Source: a virus | Lineage: Duplodnaviria; Heunggongvirae; Uroviricota; Caudoviricetes | Length of the DNA stretch: 38,049 nucleotides | Virus record (IMG/VR): IMGVR_UViG_2802429217_000005 | Location: 1 to 38,049 of that record | Strand: one strand, 5' to 3' | Part shown: positions 13,739 through 36,410 of the stretch, in pieces | How positions within the stretch are numbered: position 1 is the stretch's first letter | How the letters are laid out: each line of letters starts with the position of its first letter | Notes under the pieces: generated by a model | Databases searched by the model: none | Seen by the model: only the letters and a program-made list of their open reading frames with translations | Told to the model about the DNA's origin: nothing | Made by a program: the position numbers and the translations under genes

Positions 13739-14299
13739 CCGTAGCCTGCCGGATCACCGGAAAGGACCCGCAAAACCGAGAATAAGTATCAATACTATTT
13801 GTGATTTGAATGATGCACATCATTGAAACGCCATTCATCCATATACCAGCAGCATTCGGTGTTGCACTTCGTAACTCTGTGACTACGGTTATAAAAGCAT
13901 TGGCAACTTTTGCCACCGGCAAGTCTTCAATGGATTTCCCCTGCCGGTTTTTTATTTTCGTCGATGCATAACATTGCATTTACATCAATAGCAGCTATTG
14001 TCATTAGTATGTTACATCGATGCATGGGTGGTATTGGCGGTCTTCGCCGACCGGTTCTGTGTAGCTCCCTATGACCGGTTTTTTATTTCTAAGATTACAG
14101 AAGCCCTTCACTGTATGAAGGGCTTCTGTAACTCTTCTTACTTAGTAATTTTCGCACCTTCCGGTATTTCCATGAGTTGAGAAAACCTCATACTATCCGA
14201 CAATAATCATCAATATACGATAAAGACATCTGACCAGATTGCAGTATTAAAAGCACTCATGCAGACTACGCCCCTCATATCATATACAAGGGGATACTG

Positions 14300-24503: not shown

Positions 24504-24659
24504 TTACTCCTCAGGTTCGTAAGCTGTGAAGACAGCGACCTCCGTTTGGCTGGTTCGGATTCGTACCTCACAGAGATCTTTCCTCGTTACCAGTGCCGTC
24601 ACAATGACGGTTAAACAGATGACGATCAGGGCGATTAACATCGCCTTTTGCTGCTCCAT
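24504..24659 (-). CDS. hok: Hok-family type I toxin (HokD/RelF-like)
   Basis: 51-codon ORF missed by the >=60-aa track: MEQQKAMLIALIVICLTVIVTALVTRKDLCEVRIRTSQTEVAVFTAYEPEE, near-identical to E. coli HokD as recalled; AGGAG 9 nt upstream. Confidence 0.85.
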   Translation of the reverse strand: MEQQKAMLIALIVICLTVIVTALVTRKDLCEVRIRTSQTEVAVFTAYEPEE

Positions 24660-24841
24660 AGCCTGCTTCTCCTAGCCTTTCGGCACGTAAGAGGCTAACC
24701 TACATTTGTGAGACATAGATTGGGCCTCAGATTAATGTTAAGCGTCTTGCAGGACGCTTAATGTTAACTGTGCTTTTCTTTATCTGCCTTTTGGTGTTCA
24801 TGCCTGAGACAGATAGCCTCAATCACCCGCAGCGATTTTAC

Positions 24842-30467: not shown

Positions 30468-30893
30468 TTAGTGCATCACCACAGCATTTCCTGCCGGGCC
30501 ACCACGATTCATCTGATTGAAACCGGCGATTGCCACTGCGACAAAATCATCAGCGTCTCTCACCAGTCGTTCCCGCGTCTCCACCAACTCCCGAAAATAG
30601 ACTGAACTGTGGCTGCGCATCCGGGCCACCAGCAGAGGTGGCATTGCTTTTTCGATCGCTGGTAACAACGCCTGAATTTTTTCAACCGCATCAGTGGTGT
30701 CTTTCTCCACCCAGCGGAAAATTTTCTGGGTATTACGAGCCAGGGCTTCTGGATGGCTGTCGTCGTACAGTTCCGGGGACGTCATTCCCAGTTCGAAATA
30801 AGCCCTGGTTATCTTGGCCGCCGGAACTTTTTCACCATCCGGACGCGCCCAGGCATTCATAGCCATGCGGATGTGTTCATGCTTGATTTTCAT
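30468..30893 (-). CDS. YdaT-like protein in the cII position
   Basis: 141-aa ORF starting MKIKHEHI..., directly downstream of the Cro-like gene (ATGA overlap); resembles Rac YdaT as recalled. Confidence 0.45.
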   Translation of the reverse strand: MKIKHEHIRMAMNAWARPDGEKVPAAKITRAYFELGMTSPELYDDSHPEALARNTQKIFRWVEKDTTDAVEKIQALLPAIEKAMPPLLVARMRSHSSVYFRELVETRERLVRDADDFVAVAIAGFNQMNRGGPAGNAVVMH

Positions 30894-31117
30894 GAATCAT
30901 TCTTTCCTTCGTTCAAGGTGTTATCCTTCTTTTTGTAAAGTTCTGGGTTCAAAGATAATTTTCCCTTGGAGTATGCGGCAGCTTCCGCGGCCCTCCCCTT
31001 GGGAACTATTTCACCAGGACGTTTGCGCCACATGTATATAGCTTCACGGGTTATCCCATAAAAATCGGCAACTCTCTGAACAGAGCCAAAAAACTGGACA
31101 AGTTCATCAACTCGCAT
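30890..31117 (-). CDS. Cro/DicC-like small HTH regulator
   Basis: 75-aa ORF MRVDELVQFFGSVQRVADFYGITREAIYMWRKRPGEIVPKGRAAEAAAY... resembling DicC/YdaS-type Cro analogues; AGGAGGG Shine-Dalgarno; divergent from the repressor gene. Confidence 0.6.
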   Translation of the reverse strand: MRVDELVQFFGSVQRVADFYGITREAIYMWRKRPGEIVPKGRAAEAAAYSKGKLSLNPELYKKKDNTLNEGKNDS

Positions 31118-31209
31118 TTCACCCTCCTAAAACTAAGTATTTTTAGATTAAAGGATAATTTTTTTTAGGTCAATGCAATCTAAAATAATTTATATTCAAT
31201 TCACGGGAG
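31118..31209. promoter_or_regulatory. divergent promoter/operator region between the cro-like and repressor genes
   Basis: 92-bp AT-rich spacer with dyads CTAAAACTAAGTATTTTTAG (31127-31146) and TTTTAG-N11-CTAAAA (31163-31185); candidate leftward -35 TTGACC / -10 TAATCT and rightward -10 TATATT. Confidence 0.5.
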
Positions 31210-31860
31210 ATGATGATGGAAAGCCTTGGCATTAGGCTTAAGAGACTCAGAAAAGACAAGGGACTGACCCAAGTCGAACTGGGCAAGCTTTCTGGCGTAA
31301 CAGGGGTAACTATAGGGTACTGGGAGAAAGACCTAAACGAACCCGGTAGCAAAGCTCTTAGTAAATTAGCCCAAGCACTAGGAACTACTGAGTCCTATCT
31401 CCTATATGGAGTATCGTCTACTGAACCTACCCTTGTGCAGAACAATTCAGGCACCCAAATCCCCTATCTTTCATGGGGGGAAGCAATTTCTTTCCTAATT
31501 TTAGAAGGAGAGAAAACTATGGGAAATGCCGACAGAATCACCACATTCTTTGACGTCAAGGAGGGGGATTTTGCCGTTTCAATGCCTGATGACACTATGC
31601 ACAACCCATCAGGGTCGCCAAGCATTCCGGTTGGTGCCACAGTGATCATGAGGCCTAGAGAAAAATATAAAAATGGTAGTATCGTCGCTGTAATAGTCCC
31701 AGATCCGCTTACAAACGAACCATCTATGACTATAAAAAAATTAGTCATCGACGGAAAACTCGTGTATTTAAGCCCCCTCAATCCTCGCTATCAATCGTCC
31801 TTACTGACACCTGAATGTAAAATTGTTGCTGTAGCAAAAGGTGTGCAGTTCAGCCTATAG
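31210..31860 (+). CDS. CI-like prophage repressor (HTH-XRE N-terminus, S24 LexA-type peptidase C-terminus)
   Basis: 216-aa ORF; N-terminal LKRLRKDKGLTQVELGKLSGVTGVTIGYWE HTH; C-terminal FAVSMPDDTM ... IVAVIV ... MTIKKLV consistent with an S24 Ser/Lys autoprotease; GGGAGA Shine-Dalgarno. Confidence 0.85.
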   Translation: MMMESLGIRLKRLRKDKGLTQVELGKLSGVTGVTIGYWEKDLNEPGSKALSKLAQALGTTESYLLYGVSSTEPTLVQNNSGTQIPYLSWGEAISFLILEGEKTMGNADRITTFFDVKEGDFAVSMPDDTMHNPSGSPSIPVGATVIMRPREKYKNGSIVAVIVPDPLTNEPSMTIKKLVIDGKLVYLSPLNPRYQSSLLTPECKIVAVAKGVQFSL

Positions 31861-31883
31861 CTTCCACTTTGTTTTTCAATCAG

Positions 31884-31908
31884 AGGTCGGCTTTGTCGAC
31901 CTTTTTTT
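31884..31908 (+). terminator. candidate intrinsic terminator after the repressor gene
   Basis: AGGTCG-GCTTTGT-CGACCT hairpin followed by TTTTTTT. Confidence 0.6.
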
Positions 31909-31930
31909 AAATATATCTAGATCACACTTG

Positions 31931-31962
31931 ACTATAAAACTAAATAGATTTAGTTTTATAGT
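31931..31962. repeat. 32-bp palindrome with 15-bp perfect arms (candidate operator)
   Basis: ACTATAAAACTAAAT-AG-ATTTAGTTTTATAGT; arms perfectly complementary apart from the central dinucleotide; overlaps a TTGACT hexamer. Confidence 0.45.
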
Positions 31963-32056
31963 ATACCACCCCACCCCGCCCCACAGAACGCAGGGCAATA
32001 CTTCGAGTTACCAGGCAGTGGTCTGGGGTTAAGTAGCCAGCCCGAGGCGTAAGAAC

Positions 32057-32290
32057 ATGACGGCAGGGTTCAACTTTAACTATGCAGCAGGTTTTTGTTC
32101 CGCCACCCCGGCGTTAAGGGGAAATGAGGTCAGCATGGATACTATCGATCTTGGCAACAGCGAATCTCTGGTATGTGGCGTGTTCCCCAACCAGGACGGT
32201 ACGTTCACCGCGATGACATATACCAAAAGCAAAACGTTTAAAACCGAATCTGGCGCGCGTCGCTGGCTGGAAAGAAATTCAGGTGAGTGA
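32057..32290 (+). CDS. YdfA-like (DUF1391) small protein
   Basis: The C-terminal 51 aa from the ATG at 32135 (MDTIDLGNSESLVCGVFPNQDGTFTAMTYTKSKTFKTESGARRWLERNSGE) match E. coli YdfA as recalled; the longer 77-codon frame is also open. Confidence 0.6.
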   Translation: MTAGFNFNYAAGFCSATPALRGNEVSMDTIDLGNSESLVCGVFPNQDGTFTAMTYTKSKTFKTESGARRWLERNSGE

Positions 32291-32291
32291 T

Positions 32292-32420
32292 ATGGATTTC
32301 GACGCAATCATGGAAAAGGCTTACGAAGAATACTTCGAAGGCCTTGCCGAAGGCGAAGAAGCTCTCAGCTTCAGCGAATTTAAACAGGCGCTTTCCAGTT
32401 CGGCAAAAGCTAACAACTGA
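32292..32420 (+). CDS. YdfB-like small acidic protein
   Basis: 42-codon ORF missed by the track: MDFDAIMEKAYEEYFEGLAEGEEALSFSEFKQALSSSAKANN; starts 2 nt after the ydfA-like stop. Confidence 0.55.
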   Translation: MDFDAIMEKAYEEYFEGLAEGEEALSFSEFKQALSSSAKANN

Positions 32421-32512
32421 GAAGTTTATGATGGAATTGAGAGTTTGTTTCAAACTCTCAATAAACCAGAGGCAGGTAAGGAGCGTTAAATTATTGCTTG
32501 AGAGCAATAAGA

Positions 32513-33046
32513 TCACTCAATCTCACCGCTATAGGCATTCCATCTGAGCATGAGTGCACGCCAGAAAATATCGTTTATGTGCAAAACACAGTATGGATTT
32601 TCGTCGGGAAGGAGTTGCCCTTCCATGGGGAGCAAAATATTAGCAGATACCAGTTTTTTTATATCAGAATTATTGCGTACAGCATGGATCACAGGATAGT
32701 TCCTCGATAATGCCGTAATAAGAATTTTTTTCTGACCCGCAGTCAAGGAATCGATAACTGCATTGATATGACTGATTATTTTTTGTTCTCTTGTATTGTT
32801 CCGGTGACTTCGCCAGATCTTACGAAGAAATAAAGCTAAACGTTGGAGATTTATAGCCAGCACAAAAGAAAAGGCAAAAACGAATACCGGGTAAATATAA
32901 GGAATGCTGATTTTGTCTTGAACATACTCCGGTACAGAATCAGGCATAAAGAGCAATATCAAAACAAAGATAATAAGCATATACATAAGGCGCTCTAAGG
33001 GTTCGTTACTGAATAACTTGCTCAACAAGCCGAATACATCAGGCAT
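32513..33046 (-). CDS. membrane protein of unknown function, encoded antisense within the ydfAB-dicF operon
   Basis: 177-aa ORF with two N-terminal hydrophobic segments and a soluble C-terminal domain; visibly AT-rich; opposite strand to the flanking early-left genes. Confidence 0.5.
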   Translation of the reverse strand: MPDVFGLLSKLFSNEPLERLMYMLIIFVLILLFMPDSVPEYVQDKISIPYIYPVFVFAFSFVLAINLQRLALFLRKIWRSHRNNTREQKIISHINAVIDSLTAGQKKILITALSRNYPVIHAVRNNSDIKKLVSANILLPMEGQLLPDENPYCVLHINDIFWRALMLRWNAYSGEIE

Positions 33047-33357
33047 ATTAATAACTCTCTACTGTAAGGGTATTAAAATGTTATCACAGACTCTCGCTGT
33101 AGGGGTATAGCCGAGACCACCGAGCCTGAAGTGGTAAAAAGACAGGCACACAACACGAAAGCGCACGGCGAGGCTGTTAGTTCATAAATGGTCTGTCGTT
33201 AAATTTACGTCGACCGTGCGCTTCCGGTTGTGGCACTCCGCGAAATGGCGCGGCGGTAAGTATGGCGGGGTTATTCCTTCCCCCGTTGAGGACACCGGGT
33301 TGTCAGGTTGACCATACGCTTAAGTGACAACCCCGCTGCAACGCCCTCTGTTATCAT

Positions 33358-33415
33358 TTTTCTGGTGACGTTTGGCGGTATCAGTTTTACTCCGTGACTG
33401 CTCTGCCGCCCTTTT
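33358..33415 (+). ncRNA. dicF: DicF small RNA
   Basis: TTTCTGGTGACGTTTGGCGGTATCAGTTTTACTCCGTGACTGCTCTGCCGCCC followed by TTTTT matches the recalled 53-nt DicF sequence and its terminator. Confidence 0.8.
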
Positions 33416-33590
33416 TAAAGTGAATTTTGTGATGTGGTGAATGCGGCTGAGCGCACGCGGAACAGTTAAAACCAAAAACAGTGAAATGGGTGGATTCTCT
33501 GTATCCGGCGTTAATTGTTAACTGGTTAACGTCACCTGGAGGCACCAGGCACCGCATCAACAAAGTTCATTTGTAAAAATGGAGATAATT

Positions 33591-33812
33591 ATGATTGCTC
33601 ATCACTTCGGAACTGATGAGATTCCTCGTCAGTGCGTGACTCCCGGTGATTATGTTATTCATAAAGGAAGAACATATATTGCTTCGGTAAACAACATTAA
33701 AAAACAACGGCTCTATATTCGTGATTTTTCCACACAACACTGTATTAAGGAAACCATGATTAAAGTCTTCCTTGGTCGTGATGGTTTACCTGTAAAAGCA
33801 GAGTCATGGTGA
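33591..33812 (+). CDS. hypothetical protein in the position DicB occupies in Qin
   Basis: 73 aa from the ATG at 33591 (GGAG 6 nt upstream); does not resemble DicB as I recall it; function unknown. Confidence 0.4.
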
Positions 33813-33935
33813 GCAGTAATAAAATAACTGCCACAATACGACATTCAGCTTAATGAATACATCAGATTTGATTCTTATATGCCAGCAATGGCAGGGATTT
33901 GTTCACCCTTAAATCTGTAATGAGGTTAAAACAAA

Positions 33936-36410
33936 ATGAGTAAAGTCTTTATTTGCGCCGCCATTCCTGACGAACAGGCAATTACGGAAGAAGGTGCAGT
34001 TGCTGTAGCCACTGCCATCGAAGCTGGTGACGAACGCCGCGCCCGTGCCAAATTTACCTGGCAATTCCTGGAGCAATATCCGGCTGCTCAGGACTGTGCT
34101 TATAAATTTCTTGTCTGCGAGGATAAACCCGGCATGGCCCGCCCTGCCCTTGGTTCCTGGGATACCGAATATATGCAGGAAAACCGCTGGGATGAGGGAT
34201 CGTCTTCCTTTGTCCCGGTCGAACCAGAGCCGAATACAGAAATTGTTAACTTTAATCAGTTATCCGACGACAAACAGGCCGCTGTTCTCGTTAAGTTTGG
34301 CGCACATGAAAACGTCACCGTGGATATGGTCATCAACGCAAGCGGGCTTCTTGGCGATGACGACATGATGACCTTTGACGGACACCTCGCAGAGGCAATT
34401 ATCCGGACTAAAGAAATTAACGCCATGTATCCGGAACGTCAGATTGAATACATCAACGATGCCAGACGTGATTTAAAACCAACCGCCAAATGGCCCGACG
34501 TTCAGGCATATTTTCTCGACCGTAAAAAACGCCAGGAAAAGGAGCGCAAAGAAGGTGGTGCATATACTTCTGTTGTTGATCTCGCCCGCGCCAGCGTCAA
34601 CCGGCAGAACACTGAAAACTCAGTAGCAAAAATCAACCCTGTCACTACTGCCATTCGTCGCGAATACAAGCAGACATGGAAAACACTGGATGATGAACTG
34701 GCCTACGCTCTGTGGCCTGGTGACATTGATGCCGGAAACATTGACGGCAGCATCCATCGCTGGGCAAAAAATGAAGTTATCGACAACGACCGCGAAGACT
34801 GGAAGCGTATCTCGGCATCAATGCGCAAACAACCTGATGCCCTTCGCTACGACCGCCAGACTATTTTTGGCCTTGTCCGTGAACGTCCGATCGACATTCA
34901 CAAAGACCCTGTGGCACTGAACAAATACATTACTGAATACCTGACTACAAAGGGCGTGTTTGAAGATGAAGGAAGAAATCAGAGCGCAACTGATACTCTC
35001 TCGTCGCCAGTACCAGAAACTGATGCAGTGGAAACGGCAATTCCGGACAACGAAAAAACCGAATGCAAAGTGGAAGTCGAACCATCTGTAGAGCGTGAGG
35101 GGCCGTTCTACTTCCTCTTCACCGACAAGGATGGCGAAAAATACGGTCGCGCAAACAAACTTTCTGGTCTGGATAAGGCACTGGCTGCCGGGGCTACTGA
35201 AATCACGAAAGAAGAATATTTCGCCCGCAAAAACGGTACATACTCAGGTTCACAACAAAATACTGGTGCATCTGATACGACCGCACAACCAGGGCCGGTA
35301 AAAGTTACCGCTGACGAAGTAAACAAAATTATGCAGGCAGCCAATATCAGCCAGCCTGACGCCGATGAACTGCTTGCAGTATCACGCGGTGAATTTGTTG
35401 CAGGGATTAGCGATCCGAATGATCCGAAATGGGTAAAGGGGATTGAAACCCGCGATTCTGTGAACCAGAACCAGCAAGAAACGGAACAGAACGATCAGAA
35501 AGCGGAACAAAACAGCCCAAATACGCAACAAAACGAGCCAGAAACGAAACAACCTGAACCAGTAGTGCAACAGGAACCGAAAAAGATCTGCACCGCCTGC
35601 GGTCAGAGCGGTGGCGGCAACTGCCATGATTGTGGTGCGCTGATGGGCGACGCAACATACCAGGAAACATTCGATGACAAGAACCAGGTTGAAGTTCAGG
35701 AAGACGATTCGGAGAAAATGGAAGGCGCTGAACATCCACACAAGGGGAATGCTGGCAGCGCTCAGGACCACGCCAGCGATAGTGAAACTGGCGAGAGGGC
35801 AGATCCCTTAATTACGGTGAACGGTCATCACGTTATCACATCCACCAGCAGGACGTGTGACCATCTAATGATCGACCTTGAAACCATGGGAAAAAATCCT
35901 GATGCCCCGATCATCTCAATAGGTGCAATATTTTTCGATCCGCAAACCGGAGATATGGGACCGGAATTTAGTAAGACTATCGATCTGGAAACTGCTGGCG
36001 GAGTCATTGATCGGGACACCATTAAATGGTGGCTTAAGCAATCACGCGAAGCGCAATCTGCCATTATGACCGATGAAATCCCGTTAGATGATGCACTGTT
36101 ACAATTGCGGGAATTTATCGACGAAAACTCCGGTGAATTTTTTGTTCAGGTTTGGGGAAATGGAGCCAACTTCGACAACACGATTTTGCGCCGTTCATAC
36201 GAACGGCAGGGGATCCCCTGCCCGTGGCGTTACTACAACGATCGCGATGTACGCACAATCGTTGAGCTGGGGAAAGCCATAGACTTCGATGCCAGAACGG
36301 CTATTCCATTCGAAGGTGAGCGCCATAATGCACTTGATGACGCCCGTTACCAGGCAAAATACGTTTCAGTTATCTGGCAAAAACTTATCCCGAGTCAGGC
36401 TGATTCTTAA
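33936..36410 (+). CDS. RecE-like exonuclease: large N-terminal region plus C-terminal DEDDh (DnaQ-like) 3'-5' exonuclease domain
   Basis: 824-aa ORF; central block LLAVSRGEFVAGISDPNDPKWVKGIETRD resembles RecE; C-terminus has LMIDLETMG, WGNGANFDNTIL and HNALDDARY (DEDDh-like); Cys cluster CTACGQSGGGNCHDCG. Confidence 0.7.
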   Translation: MSKVFICAAIPDEQAITEEGAVAVATAIEAGDERRARAKFTWQFLEQYPAAQDCAYKFLVCEDKPGMARPALGSWDTEYMQENRWDEGSSSFVPVEPEPNTEIVNFNQLSDDKQAAVLVKFGAHENVTVDMVINASGLLGDDDMMTFDGHLAEAIIRTKEINAMYPERQIEYINDARRDLKPTAKWPDVQAYFLDRKKRQEKERKEGGAYTSVVDLARASVNRQNTENSVAKINPVTTAIRREYKQTWKTLDDELAYALWPGDIDAGNIDGSIHRWAKNEVIDNDREDWKRISASMRKQPDALRYDRQTIFGLVRERPIDIHKDPVALNKYITEYLTTKGVFEDEGRNQSATDTLSSPVPETDAVETAIPDNEKTECKVEVEPSVEREGPFYFLFTDKDGEKYGRANKLSGLDKALAAGATEITKEEYFARKNGTYSGSQQNTGASDTTAQPGPVKVTADEVNKIMQAANISQPDADELLAVSRGEFVAGISDPNDPKWVKGIETRDSVNQNQQETEQNDQKAEQNSPNTQQNEPETKQPEPVVQQEPKKICTACGQSGGGNCHDCGALMGDATYQETFDDKNQVEVQEDDSEKMEGAEHPHKGNAGSAQDHASDSETGERADPLITVNGHHVITSTSRTCDHLMIDLETMGKNPDAPIISIGAIFFDPQTGDMGPEFSKTIDLETAGGVIDRDTIKWWLKQSREAQSAIMTDEIPLDDALLQLREFIDENSGEFFVQVWGNGANFDNTILRRSYERQGIPCPWRYYNDRDVRTIVELGKAIDFDARTAIPFEGERHNALDDARYQAKYVSVIWQKLIPSQADS

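What the first reader, a model, noticed from the sequence alone, without database searches (positions are those of the whole stretch)
31931..31962. 32-bp palindrome downstream of the repressor gene
The arms are 15 bp and perfectly complementary (ACTATAAAACTAAAT / ATTTAGTTTTATAGT). It shares the core TAAAACTAA with the dyad between the cro-like and repressor genes and overlaps a TTGACT hexamer. This is a candidate OL-type operator for the rightward early-left operon, or a binding site for another regulator.
Basis: seen in the sequence. Interest (0 to 1): 0.45.

Follow-up and report, generated by a model that had tools for sequence, protein, structure and literature searches.

The report
Prophage early-left operator-promoter (OL/PL)
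The 32-bp palindrome is real and is most likely the main repressor-binding site laid over the promoter of the prophage's early-left genes, which is an ordinary part of a lambda/P22-type immunity switch.

Summary
The palindrome is confirmed: 15-bp perfect arms at 31931-31945 and 31948-31962 around a 2-nt AG centre. None that long appeared in 100 simulated windows.

It lies 71 bp after the stop of a P22-C2-like repressor gene and after that gene's intrinsic terminator. It sits on a promoter-like TTGACT-17 bp-TAGTTT at the head of a ydfA-ydfB-DicF-kilR-recE-like operon.

Its core, CTAA-N6-TTAG, occurs exactly twice in 38 kb. The other copy is the cro-proximal site of a three-site array between cro and the repressor gene.

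At least 47 of 49 related viral contigs, plus E. coli SE11, phage 606R7 and the Xenorhabdus and Arsenophonus prophages (repressors 46-52% identical, recognition helix invariant), keep the core at the same offset from the -35. Phlomobacter keeps only a degenerate remnant. Prophages with other repressors (Qin DicA, Rac RacR, Tritos, Evi) share the -35 and downstream leader but carry different dyads there.

The best reading is OL1 overlapping PL, with repression by promoter occlusion. Binding itself was not tested.

Only the central ~22 bp are conserved. The perfect 32-bp form is limited to the lineage with an identical repressor (18 of 5,426 complete E. coli genomes) and weakens the -10.

Verdict: a new member of a known kind, of low interest.

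The parts
31931..31962 (.). The 32-bp palindrome (15-bp perfect arms, AG centre). It is the extended form of operator OL1.
31940..31953 (.). Conserved operator core CTAAATAGATTTAG (CTAA-N6-TTAG). With its A/T flanks (31936-31957) it forms the conserved ~22-bp dyad.
   Evidence: One of only two exact matches in the window. It scores 19.0 bits with a matrix trained only on Xenorhabdus, Arsenophonus and Phlomobacter sites, against a maximum of 16.0 in 50 shuffles. It is conserved at the same offset in relatives.
31928..31933 (+). Putative PL -35 hexamer TTGACT.
   Evidence: TTGAC is invariant in the alignment with SE11, Qin and Rac. It is TTGACN in the E. coli relatives and TTGCAN or TTGAAT in the Arsenophonus and Xenorhabdus loci.
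31951..31956 (+). Putative PL -10 hexamer TAGTTT, 17-bp spacer. It overlaps the right half-site. Relatives have TAGATT or TATATT here.
   Evidence: The generic consensus scan did not call it, because it matches only 3 of 6 positions.
31907..31920 (.). Weak candidate second operator OL2, TTAAATATATCTAG, 33 bp upstream of OL1 centre to centre.
   Evidence: It has two core mismatches here and one mismatch in some B-type loci and in the Arsenophonus and one Xenorhabdus locus, at 33-35 bp spacing. It scores 5.7 bits, which is not significant on its own.
31882..31904 (+). Intrinsic terminator of the repressor gene: a GC-containing stem followed by a T-run. It separates the repressor transcript from PL.
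31216..31860 (+). Repressor gene (214 aa; HTH_3 plus Peptidase_S24). The N-terminal domain is closest to P22 C2.
31133..31146 (.). OR1-like site CTAAGTATTTTTAG, next to cro. It overlaps the inferred PR -10 (TAATCT, reverse complement of 31145-31150).
   Evidence: 22.9 bits, the top hit in the window. The promoter assignment is inference.
31155..31168 (.). OR2-like site ATAATTTTTTTTAG. It abuts the inferred PR -35 (TTGACC, reverse complement of 31168-31173).
   Evidence: 9.4 bits.
31180..31193 (.). OR3-like site CTAAAATAATTTAT, next to the repressor gene.
   Evidence: 19.3 bits.
30890..31117 (-). cro-like gene (P22_Cro family). Its product is expected to bind the same operators.
   Evidence: Binding is inferred from the lambda/P22 paradigm and from CP-933P (PMC8630535).
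31963..32134 (+). Conserved C-rich 5' leader of the early-left transcript. It is shared by prophages of different immunity types, and homology to them starts at about the predicted +1.
   Evidence: There is no Rfam match and no excess folding.
32135..32420 (+). First genes of the controlled operon: ydfA-like (DUF1391, 32135-32290) and ydfB-like (32292-32420). Further downstream on the same strand lie DicF RNA (33360-33411), a kilR-like ORF (33579-33812) and an 824-aa RecE-like gene (33936-36410).

Best explanation
The palindrome is OL1, the principal operator of the prophage's early-left promoter PL, which is the counterpart of dicBp in Qin. A dimer of the P22-C2-like repressor encoded just upstream would recognise the dyad AAAACTAA-N6-TTAGTTTT, and after induction the P22-Cro-like protein would do the same. 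The dyad fills the spacer and overlaps the -10 of TTGACT-17-TAGTTT, so a bound repressor would keep RNA polymerase off the promoter. That would silence the ydfA-ydfB-DicF-kilR-recE-like operon, whose products include cell-division inhibitors, in the lysogen.

Shown here: the palindrome, its position, the shared core with the OR sites, the conserved geometry in relatives, and its replacement in other immunity types. Inferred: actual binding, promoter activity, the transcription start near 31963, and any cooperation with the weak OL2 candidate or with OR about 0.8 kb away.
For: 1. Position. The palindrome starts 71 bp after the repressor stop codon, beyond an intrinsic terminator and upstream of the + strand genes ydfA, ydfB, DicF and kilR-like.

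2. Shared motif. Exact CTAA-N6-TTAG occurs only at 31133 (OR) and 31940 (the palindrome) in 38 kb. With one mismatch allowed, 4 of the 9 hits lie in the immunity region.

3. Position-weight matrix scan. A matrix trained only on sites from the Xenorhabdus, Arsenophonus and Phlomobacter loci ranks OR1, OR3 and the palindrome as the top three of about 38,000 positions. All three score above every one of 50 shuffles.

4. Conserved architecture. At least 47 of 49 IMG/VR loci with 91-100% identical repressors, plus SE11, phage 606R7 and the Arsenophonus and Xenorhabdus loci, have a -35, then 6 nt, then CTAA-N6-TTA(G/T), with TAGATT or TATATT as the -10 at a 17-bp spacer, and a three-site OR spaced 22-25 bp. 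The Phlomobacter locus L008 keeps only a degenerate remnant and two recognisable OR sites.

5. Recognition helix. The segment GV(T/S)GVT(I/V)GYWEKDLNEP is invariant even in the 46-52% identical repressors, which matches the conserved half-site.

6. Other immunity types. Qin (DicA), Rac (RacR), Evi and 640R1 keep a TTGAC -35; these and Tritos keep at least the C-rich start of the leader. All carry different dyads between the hexamers, and Qin's is the DicA operator type (PMC3441716).

7. Literature. dicBp upstream of ydfA is the PL analogue repressed by DicA (PMC10448788). CP-933P has a PL with OL sites regulated by its CI and Cro analogues (PMC8630535).

8. The repressor has HTH_3 plus Peptidase_S24 domains, with an N-terminal domain closest to P22 C2. 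The divergent gene belongs to the P22_Cro family.
Against: There is no binding or transcription data for this element. The -10 in this lineage (TAGTTT) matches the consensus at only 3 of 6 positions, and the generic promoter scan did not call the promoter. The training sites for the matrix were picked with a pattern first seen in the window, which is partly circular. Only one strong site is present, whereas lambda and P22 have three at OL; the OL2 candidate is not significant on its own. The outer 5 bp of each arm are not conserved among relatives, so the full 32 bp is not explained by the operator model alone.
Confidence: 0.85

Rival explanations
1. The palindrome is a site for a different regulator, not for the adjacent repressor. 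Candidates are the YdaT/CII-like protein, a host nucleoid protein on AT-rich DNA, or Cro alone.
For: The segment is AT-rich and symmetric, so many DNA-binding dimers could in principle use it. Binding by the repressor was not tested.
Against: The published YdaT motif TTGATT-N6-AATCAA (PMC9986795) is not in the palindrome. Its best match in the window (one mismatch) lies at 30883-30900, at the cro/ydaT junction. The core is shared specifically with the OR sites. It tracks the repressor's recognition helix across genera and is replaced when the repressor type changes.
Confidence: 0.05
2. The perfect 32-bp symmetry has its own cause beyond a standard operator. One possibility is a mutational product: correction of a quasi-palindrome by intrastrand template switching. 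Another is selection for an unusually tight 'super-operator' that trades promoter strength for repression. The core would still be OL1.
For: B-type relatives have an identical left arm, but their right arm is complementary at 11 of 15 positions. In the window's lineage all four mismatched positions are complementary, including the A-to-T change that turns the -10 TAGATT into TAGTTT. More distant relatives (Xenorhabdus, Arsenophonus) have TAGATT or TATATT, which suggests the symmetric state is derived. The perfect form is rare, found in 18 of 5,426 complete E. coli genomes.
Against: The direction of change is not established. The surrounding intergenic DNA is also strongly diverged between the lineages, so four differences in 15 bp are not in themselves unusual. 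One locus (L024) carries an intermediate form, which fits stepwise change or recombination. A Xenorhabdus OL is also 14 of 16 symmetric, so high symmetry recurs without a special mechanism.
Confidence: 0.15
3. The palindrome acts as nucleic-acid structure rather than as a protein-binding site. It could be an RNA hairpin or terminator for read-through from the repressor gene, or a DNA cruciform or recombination site.
For: It would form a 14-15 bp hairpin.
Against: The stem is almost entirely A/T and is not followed by a T-run. A canonical terminator already lies 27 bp upstream. Relatives keep the half-site letters and the promoter hexamers but not the pairing: symmetry falls to 6-11 of 16 positions while CTAA and TTAG stay. 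That is the pattern of a protein site, not of a structure.
Confidence: 0.02

Closest known systems
dicBp and its DicA operator in the Qin cryptic prophage of E. coli K-12 (the PL/OL analogue upstream of ydfA)
   Same: It has the same position and geometry: repressor gene, then a TTGAC -35, a dyad in the 17-bp spacer overlapping the -10, then ydfA, ydfB, DicF and the rest. DicA represses dicBp, and DicF is processed from that transcript (PMC10448788).
   Different: The repressor is different. DicA is 135 aa and has no S24 domain. The dyad is also different: TTAG-N6-CTAA (Oc is TTGTTAGTCATAACTAACAA, PMC3441716) against CTAA-N6-TTAG here. Qin also lacks most of the conserved leader.
OL/PL of Salmonella phage P22 (C2 repressor and Cro) and of phage 434
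   Same: The repressor N-terminal domain is closest to P22 C2 among solved structures (E = 2.5e-7), and the divergent gene is in the P22_Cro family. The layout is a tripartite OR plus an operator over PL. The 14-bp core, with 4-bp outer half-sites and a 6-bp A/T-rich centre, has the same geometry as the 434 operators (ACAA-N6-TTGT, from my own knowledge).
   Different: The operator sequence differs from the P22 consensus (ATTTAAG-N4-CTTAAAT, from my own knowledge). Only one strong OL site is present here, against three. The S24 domain has Thr where lambda CI has the Ser nucleophile.
PL933P with OL1-3 of cryptic prophage CP-933P (PaaR2 / YdaS / YdaT), E. coli O157:H7
   Same: It is a lambdoid immunity region with a YdaS-type Cro and a YdaT-type CII analogue. 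It has a PL-like promoter, with operators resembling those at OR, that is regulated by the CI and Cro analogues (PMC8630535).
   Different: The repressor is unrelated (PaaR2) and the repeat consensus is different (GTTTAGTAA). A toxin-antitoxin pair is inserted downstream of that repressor.
RacR-controlled promoter upstream of ydaG/ydaF in the Rac prophage
   Same: The length from TTGAC to the CATACCA leader is identical, and the leader is nearly identical.
   Different: The dyad is TAGGCATTACCTA, for RacR, and the -10 is TATAGT.

Membership tests
Lambdoid OL/PL operator-promoter | Lies downstream of the repressor gene, on the same strand, at the head of the early-left operon. | tested here: met
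   The repressor gene is at 31216-31860 (+) and its terminator at 31882-31904. The palindrome follows, then ydfA, ydfB, DicF, a kilR-like ORF and a recE-like gene on the + strand.
Lambdoid OL/PL operator-promoter | Overlaps a sigma-70 promoter, so a bound repressor occludes RNA polymerase. | tested here: inconclusive
   TTGACT-17-TAGTTT aligns column for column with TTGACC-17-TAATCT (Qin dicBp), TTGACA-17-TATAGT (Rac) and TTGACT-17-TAGATT (B-type relatives). In this lineage the -10 matches only 3 of 6 positions, and the consensus scan did not call it. No transcription data exist.
Lambdoid OL/PL operator-promoter | Sequence-related to the operators between cro and the repressor gene. | tested here: met
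   The exact core occurs only at OR1 and here. The two share 18 of 22 positions. The matrix scan puts OR1, OR3 and OL1 as the top three hits.
Lambdoid OL/PL operator-promoter | Two-fold symmetry suited to a repressor dimer. | tested here: met
   The arms are 15 of 15 complementary. The conserved symmetric positions in relatives span about 22 bp.
Lambdoid OL/PL operator-promoter | Belongs to the immunity module: kept with the same repressor specificity and replaced with a different one. | tested here: met
   The core is kept in all sampled relatives except the Phlomobacter locus L008, which has a degenerate remnant, and one or two viral loci where it was not located; all share the invariant recognition helix. 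Different dyads sit at the same place in Qin, Rac, Tritos, Evi and 640R1, while at least the C-rich start of the downstream leader is shared.
Lambdoid OL/PL operator-promoter | Several adjacent sites (OL1-OL3) for cooperative binding. | tested here: inconclusive
   One strong site is present. A weak OL2 candidate lies 33 bp upstream (31907-31920) and is better matched in some relatives, but it scores 5.7 bits here, below shuffle maxima.
Lambdoid OL/PL operator-promoter | Physically bound by the cognate repressor and Cro. | not testable with these tools
   This needs EMSA or footprinting, or reporter assays.
DicA-type operator (Qin) | TTAG-N6-CTAA dyad recognised by the short, S24-less DicA repressor. 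| tested here: not met
   The half-sites here are in the opposite order (CTAA-N6-TTAG), and the repressor is a 214-aa HTH_3 plus S24 protein (PMC3441716). The element is a positional counterpart only.
Intrinsic (Rho-independent) terminator | G+C-rich stem followed by a T-run. | tested here: not met
   The stem is almost all A/T and is followed by ATACCACCCC. The terminator scan called 31882-31904 instead.

The most novel reading that the evidence does not exclude
The perfect 32-bp symmetry is a recent, derived state of an ordinary quasi-symmetric OL1. It would have arisen either by hairpin-templated (quasi-palindrome) correction or by selection for a single very tight operator, at the cost of a weaker -10. 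If so, it would be a natural example of an operator-promoter trade-off in a switch that controls the toxic DicF and Kil functions.
Probability: 0.15. Interest if true: 0.35.

Novelty: new member of a known kind. Interest (0 to 1): 0.15.

Why it matters
The result assigns a function to an unannotated intergenic element. The stretch carries no feature in RefSeq.

It also defines the likely operator code, CTAA-N6-TTAG with A/T flanks, of one P22-C2-like immunity group. That group was seen in roughly 460 complete E. coli genomes and in Xenorhabdus and Arsenophonus prophages.

It locates the promoter that should govern DicF and Kil expression in these prophages. It shows that the mosaic joint between the immunity module and the shared early-left leader falls at about the transcription start.

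None of this changes the accepted picture of lambdoid switches.

Tried and rejected
- **Alternative operator model.** I considered CTAAAA-N8-TTTTAG for OR1. I rejected it because a 1-bp insertion in B-type relatives changes that spacing while CTAA-N6-TTAG is kept, and because OL1 would then have an N2 spacing.
- **Generic promoter scan.** It did not call PL or PR. It listed only a minus-strand TTTATA-17-TATATT match inside and upstream of the palindrome, and the number of hits was within chance. I gave that match no weight.
- **Rfam.** Neither the gathering nor the permissive search found a family at the palindrome or in the leader.
- **Leader fold.** The leader does not fold better than shuffles, z = +0.66, so I make no claim of a structured antitermination RNA.
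- **boxA.** No boxA-like sequence was found on the + strand in 31900-34000.
- **Genome-species scan with the repressor.** It returned only five useful loci. The viral-contig scan was the productive one.
- **Second nested operator.** I looked for one within the 32 bp. The best match, 31934-31947, scores 3.4 bits, so I rejected it.
- **YdaT motif.** It is not in the palindrome.

Full report
**Observation**

The sequence at 31931-31962 reads ACTATAAAACTAAAT-AG-ATTTAGTTTTATAGT. The two 15-nt arms are perfectly complementary and the 2-nt centre is not symmetric. Inverted repeats with arms of 15 nt or more and a spacer of 6 nt or less occur twice in the window. The other is a G+C-rich hairpin at 14095-14131. 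None appeared in 100 first-order Markov simulations of the window. TTGACT lies at 31928-31933 and overlaps the left arm. The 9-mer TAAAACTAA is shared with 31128-31136, and that match extends to 18 of 22 positions.

**Context**

The surrounding region is the immunity region of a lambdoid E. coli prophage of the Rac/Qin type.

- On the minus strand lie a YdaT-family (CII-analogue) gene at 30468-30893 and a P22_Cro-family gene at 30890-31117.
- On the plus strand lies a 214-aa repressor at 31216-31860 with HTH_3 and Peptidase_S24 domains. Its N-terminal domain is closest to P22 C2 among solved structures, and its C-terminal domain is closest to lambda CI.
- An intrinsic terminator follows the repressor gene at 31882-31904.
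- The palindrome comes next, followed by a 170-nt leader.
- The leader is followed by ydfA-like (DUF1391) and ydfB-like genes, an oppositely oriented sieB, DicF RNA (Rfam, 76.7 bits), a kilR-like ORF and an 824-aa RecE-like gene.

**Promoter geometry**

I aligned the repressor-to-ydfA interval with E. coli SE11 (an 89% identical variant), Qin (dicA to ydfA) and Rac (racR to ydaG). The alignment shows an invariant TTGAC, a segment of fixed length, and then the shared leader beginning CATACCA or TATACCA. The hexamer pairs are:

| Prophage | -35 | Spacer | -10 |
|---|---|---|---|
| Window | TTGACT | 17 bp | TAGTTT |
| SE11 / B-type | TTGACT | 17 bp | TAGATT |
| Qin | TTGACC | 17 bp | TAATCT |
| Rac | TTGACA | 17 bp | TATAGT |

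The Qin promoter is dicBp. This is the experimentally studied PL analogue, from which the ydfABC-dicF-dicB transcript starts and which DicA represses (PMC10448788). Between the hexamers each prophage carries its own dyad. In Qin it is TTAGTCATGGCTAA, the same type as the genetically validated DicA operator Oc, TTGTTAGTCATAACTAACAA (PMC3441716). In Rac it is TAGGCATTACCTA. Phages Tritos, Evi and 640R1 have yet other repressors and other dyads, but share at least the C-rich start of the leader.

Homology between the window and phages of other immunity types begins at window position 31963-31974, which is about the predicted transcription start. The palindrome therefore belongs to the immunity-specific module and sits exactly where such prophages keep the operator of the early-left promoter.

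**Operator motif**

The core CTAA-N6-TTAG occurs exactly twice in the 38-kb window, at 31133-31146 between cro and the repressor gene and at 31940-31953 in the centre of the palindrome. The chance expectation is 0.29, and 4 of 100 shuffles had two or more matches. With one mismatch allowed there are nine hits, which is about the chance number. Four of them lie in the immunity region: three in a 61-bp stretch of the divergent intergenic region, spaced 22 and 25 bp centre to centre like lambda's OR1-OR3, plus the palindrome.

**Relatives**

- A scan of viral contigs gave 49 loci. Of these, 47 have repressors 91-100% identical. All of the 47 keep the tripartite OR, and the OL1 core was found in all but at most two of them.
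- The species-genome scan added prophages of Arsenophonus and Phlomobacter (52% identical) and two Xenorhabdus species (45-46% identical).
- In these loci the OL1 core sits 6 nt after the -35 hexamer, with TAGATT or TATATT as the -10 at a 17-bp spacer. The Phlomobacter locus is the exception: it has only two recognisable OR sites and a degenerate OL remnant.
- Xenorhabdus hominickii has three perfect cores in OR, and its OL reads TTTAAAACTAAGTTAACTTAGATTTAAA.
- The recognition-helix segment GV(T/S)GVT(I/V)GYWEKDLNEP is invariant in all these repressors, although the rest of the protein diverges to 46% identity. This matches the conserved half-site.
- A position-weight matrix built only from the Xenorhabdus, Arsenophonus and Phlomobacter sites ranks OR1 (22.9 bits), OR3 (19.3) and the palindrome core (19.0) as the top three positions of the window. 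All three exceed the maximum of 50 shuffles (16.0). OR2 scores 9.4. The training sites were selected with the core pattern, so this test is not fully independent.

**What is and is not conserved**

Across the variants, the symmetric positions that persist are the CTAA/TTAG cores, the inner A/T pair and the AAA/TTT flanks. Together these make a dyad of about 22 bp. The outer five bases of each arm vary.

The perfect palindrome is confined to the lineage whose repressor is 100% identical to the window's. That lineage comprises ten loci counting the window, three of which carry one change. This intergenic variant is present in only 18 of 5,426 complete E. coli genomes, where it carries no annotation.

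Relatives of the B type have the same left arm, but their right arm is complementary at 11 of 15 positions. All four differences in the window's lineage restore complementarity. One of them turns the -10 from TAGATT into the weaker TAGTTT. More distant relatives have TAGATT or TATATT, so the symmetric state looks derived, although the polarity is not proven. This could reflect selection for tighter repression of an operon that encodes cell-division inhibitors, or hairpin-templated correction. I rate that reading at about 0.15.

**Mechanism proposed**

A repressor dimer on OL1 covers the spacer and the -10 of PL and excludes RNA polymerase. After repressor loss, PL fires, and Cro can later bind the same site. 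Several steps are inferred:

- binding of the repressor and Cro to the site;
- the transcription start near 31963;
- a role for the weak upstream site at 31907-31920 (5.7 bits, not significant alone, but better matched at 33-35 bp spacing in some relatives);
- any OL-OR looping over the 807 bp between OL1 and OR1.

PR is inferred as TTGACC-17-TAATCT on the minus strand (31173 down to 31145), overlapped by OR1 and OR2.

**Rivals**

- *Structural role.* A terminator or cruciform is unlikely. The stem is A/T-only with no T-run, and a canonical terminator lies just upstream. Relatives keep the half-site letters but not the pairing.
- *Another regulator's site.* This is unsupported. The published YdaT motif has its best match at 30883-30900, not in the palindrome.

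**Comparison with known systems and verdict**

In function and position the element matches lambdoid OL/PL, and most precisely dicBp with its DicA operator and PL933P of CP-933P (PMC8630535). It is not a DicA-type operator, because the half-site order is reversed and the repressor architecture differs. Its sequence is not that of the P22 operators either, although the repressor and Cro belong to the P22 families. It is a new member of a known kind, and specialists would not be surprised by it. Interest 0.15.

Noticed in passing
window 31963-32134 (also L005 Rac, L001 SE11, L066-L069, L007 Arsenophonus): A C-rich 5' leader (ACCACCCCACCCCGCCCCACAGAA...TAAGTAGCCAGCCCGAGGCGTAAGAACATGACGGCA) is shared by prophages with unrelated repressors, and part of it is recognisable even in Arsenophonus. 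Most of it is deleted in K-12 Qin. It has no Rfam match and no excess folding (z = +0.66). It could be a Rho-loading or processing region, but its function is unknown.
   Followed up: partly
window 31216-31860 (repressor residues ~125-130 and ~85-92): In the S24 domain the position aligned with the lambda CI Ser nucleophile (GNSM) is Thr (DDTM). The Lys (IKKL) is kept. No Ala-Gly is visible in the linker (LSWGEAIS). The Xenorhabdus relative has Ser (NDSM). The repressor may not self-cleave in the classical RecA-dependent way.
   Followed up: partly
window 30883-30900: TTGATTTTCATGAATCAT is the best match in the window (one mismatch) to the published YdaT operator TTGATT-N6-AATCAA. It lies exactly at the cro stop / ydaT start junction, where CP-933P has a YdaT-activated promoter. 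It is a likely PRE-type site.
   Followed up: partly
window 33360-33411 (+): A DicF sRNA gene (Rfam RF00039, 76.7 bits) lies in the early-left operon upstream of a kilR-like ORF (33579-33812). This prophage therefore combines Qin-type (DicF) and Rac-type (kilR, sieB) left-arm genes.
   Followed up: no
window 24657-24826 (-): There is a sok antitoxin RNA match (Rfam RF01794, 81.8 bits), which implies a hok/sok-type module within the prophage.
   Followed up: no
window 32436-32462: A 12-bp-arm inverted repeat, ATTGAGAGTTTG-TTT-CAAACTCTCAAT, lies between the convergent ydfB-like and sieB genes. It is probably a bidirectional terminator.
   Followed up: no
window 14095-14131: This is the longest perfect inverted repeat of the window, with 16-bp G+C-containing arms and a 5-nt loop (TTACAGAAGCCCTTCA-CTGTA-TGAAGGGCTTCTGTAA). 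It is terminator-like. I did not examine it.
   Followed up: no
L007 (Arsenophonus nasoniae) about 2360-2375: The early-left leader of the Arsenophonus relative contains CGCTCTTTAACA, a match to the boxA consensus (recalled from my own knowledge). This suggests an N/nut-type antitermination site there. Nothing similar was found in the window at 31900-34000.
   Followed up: partly
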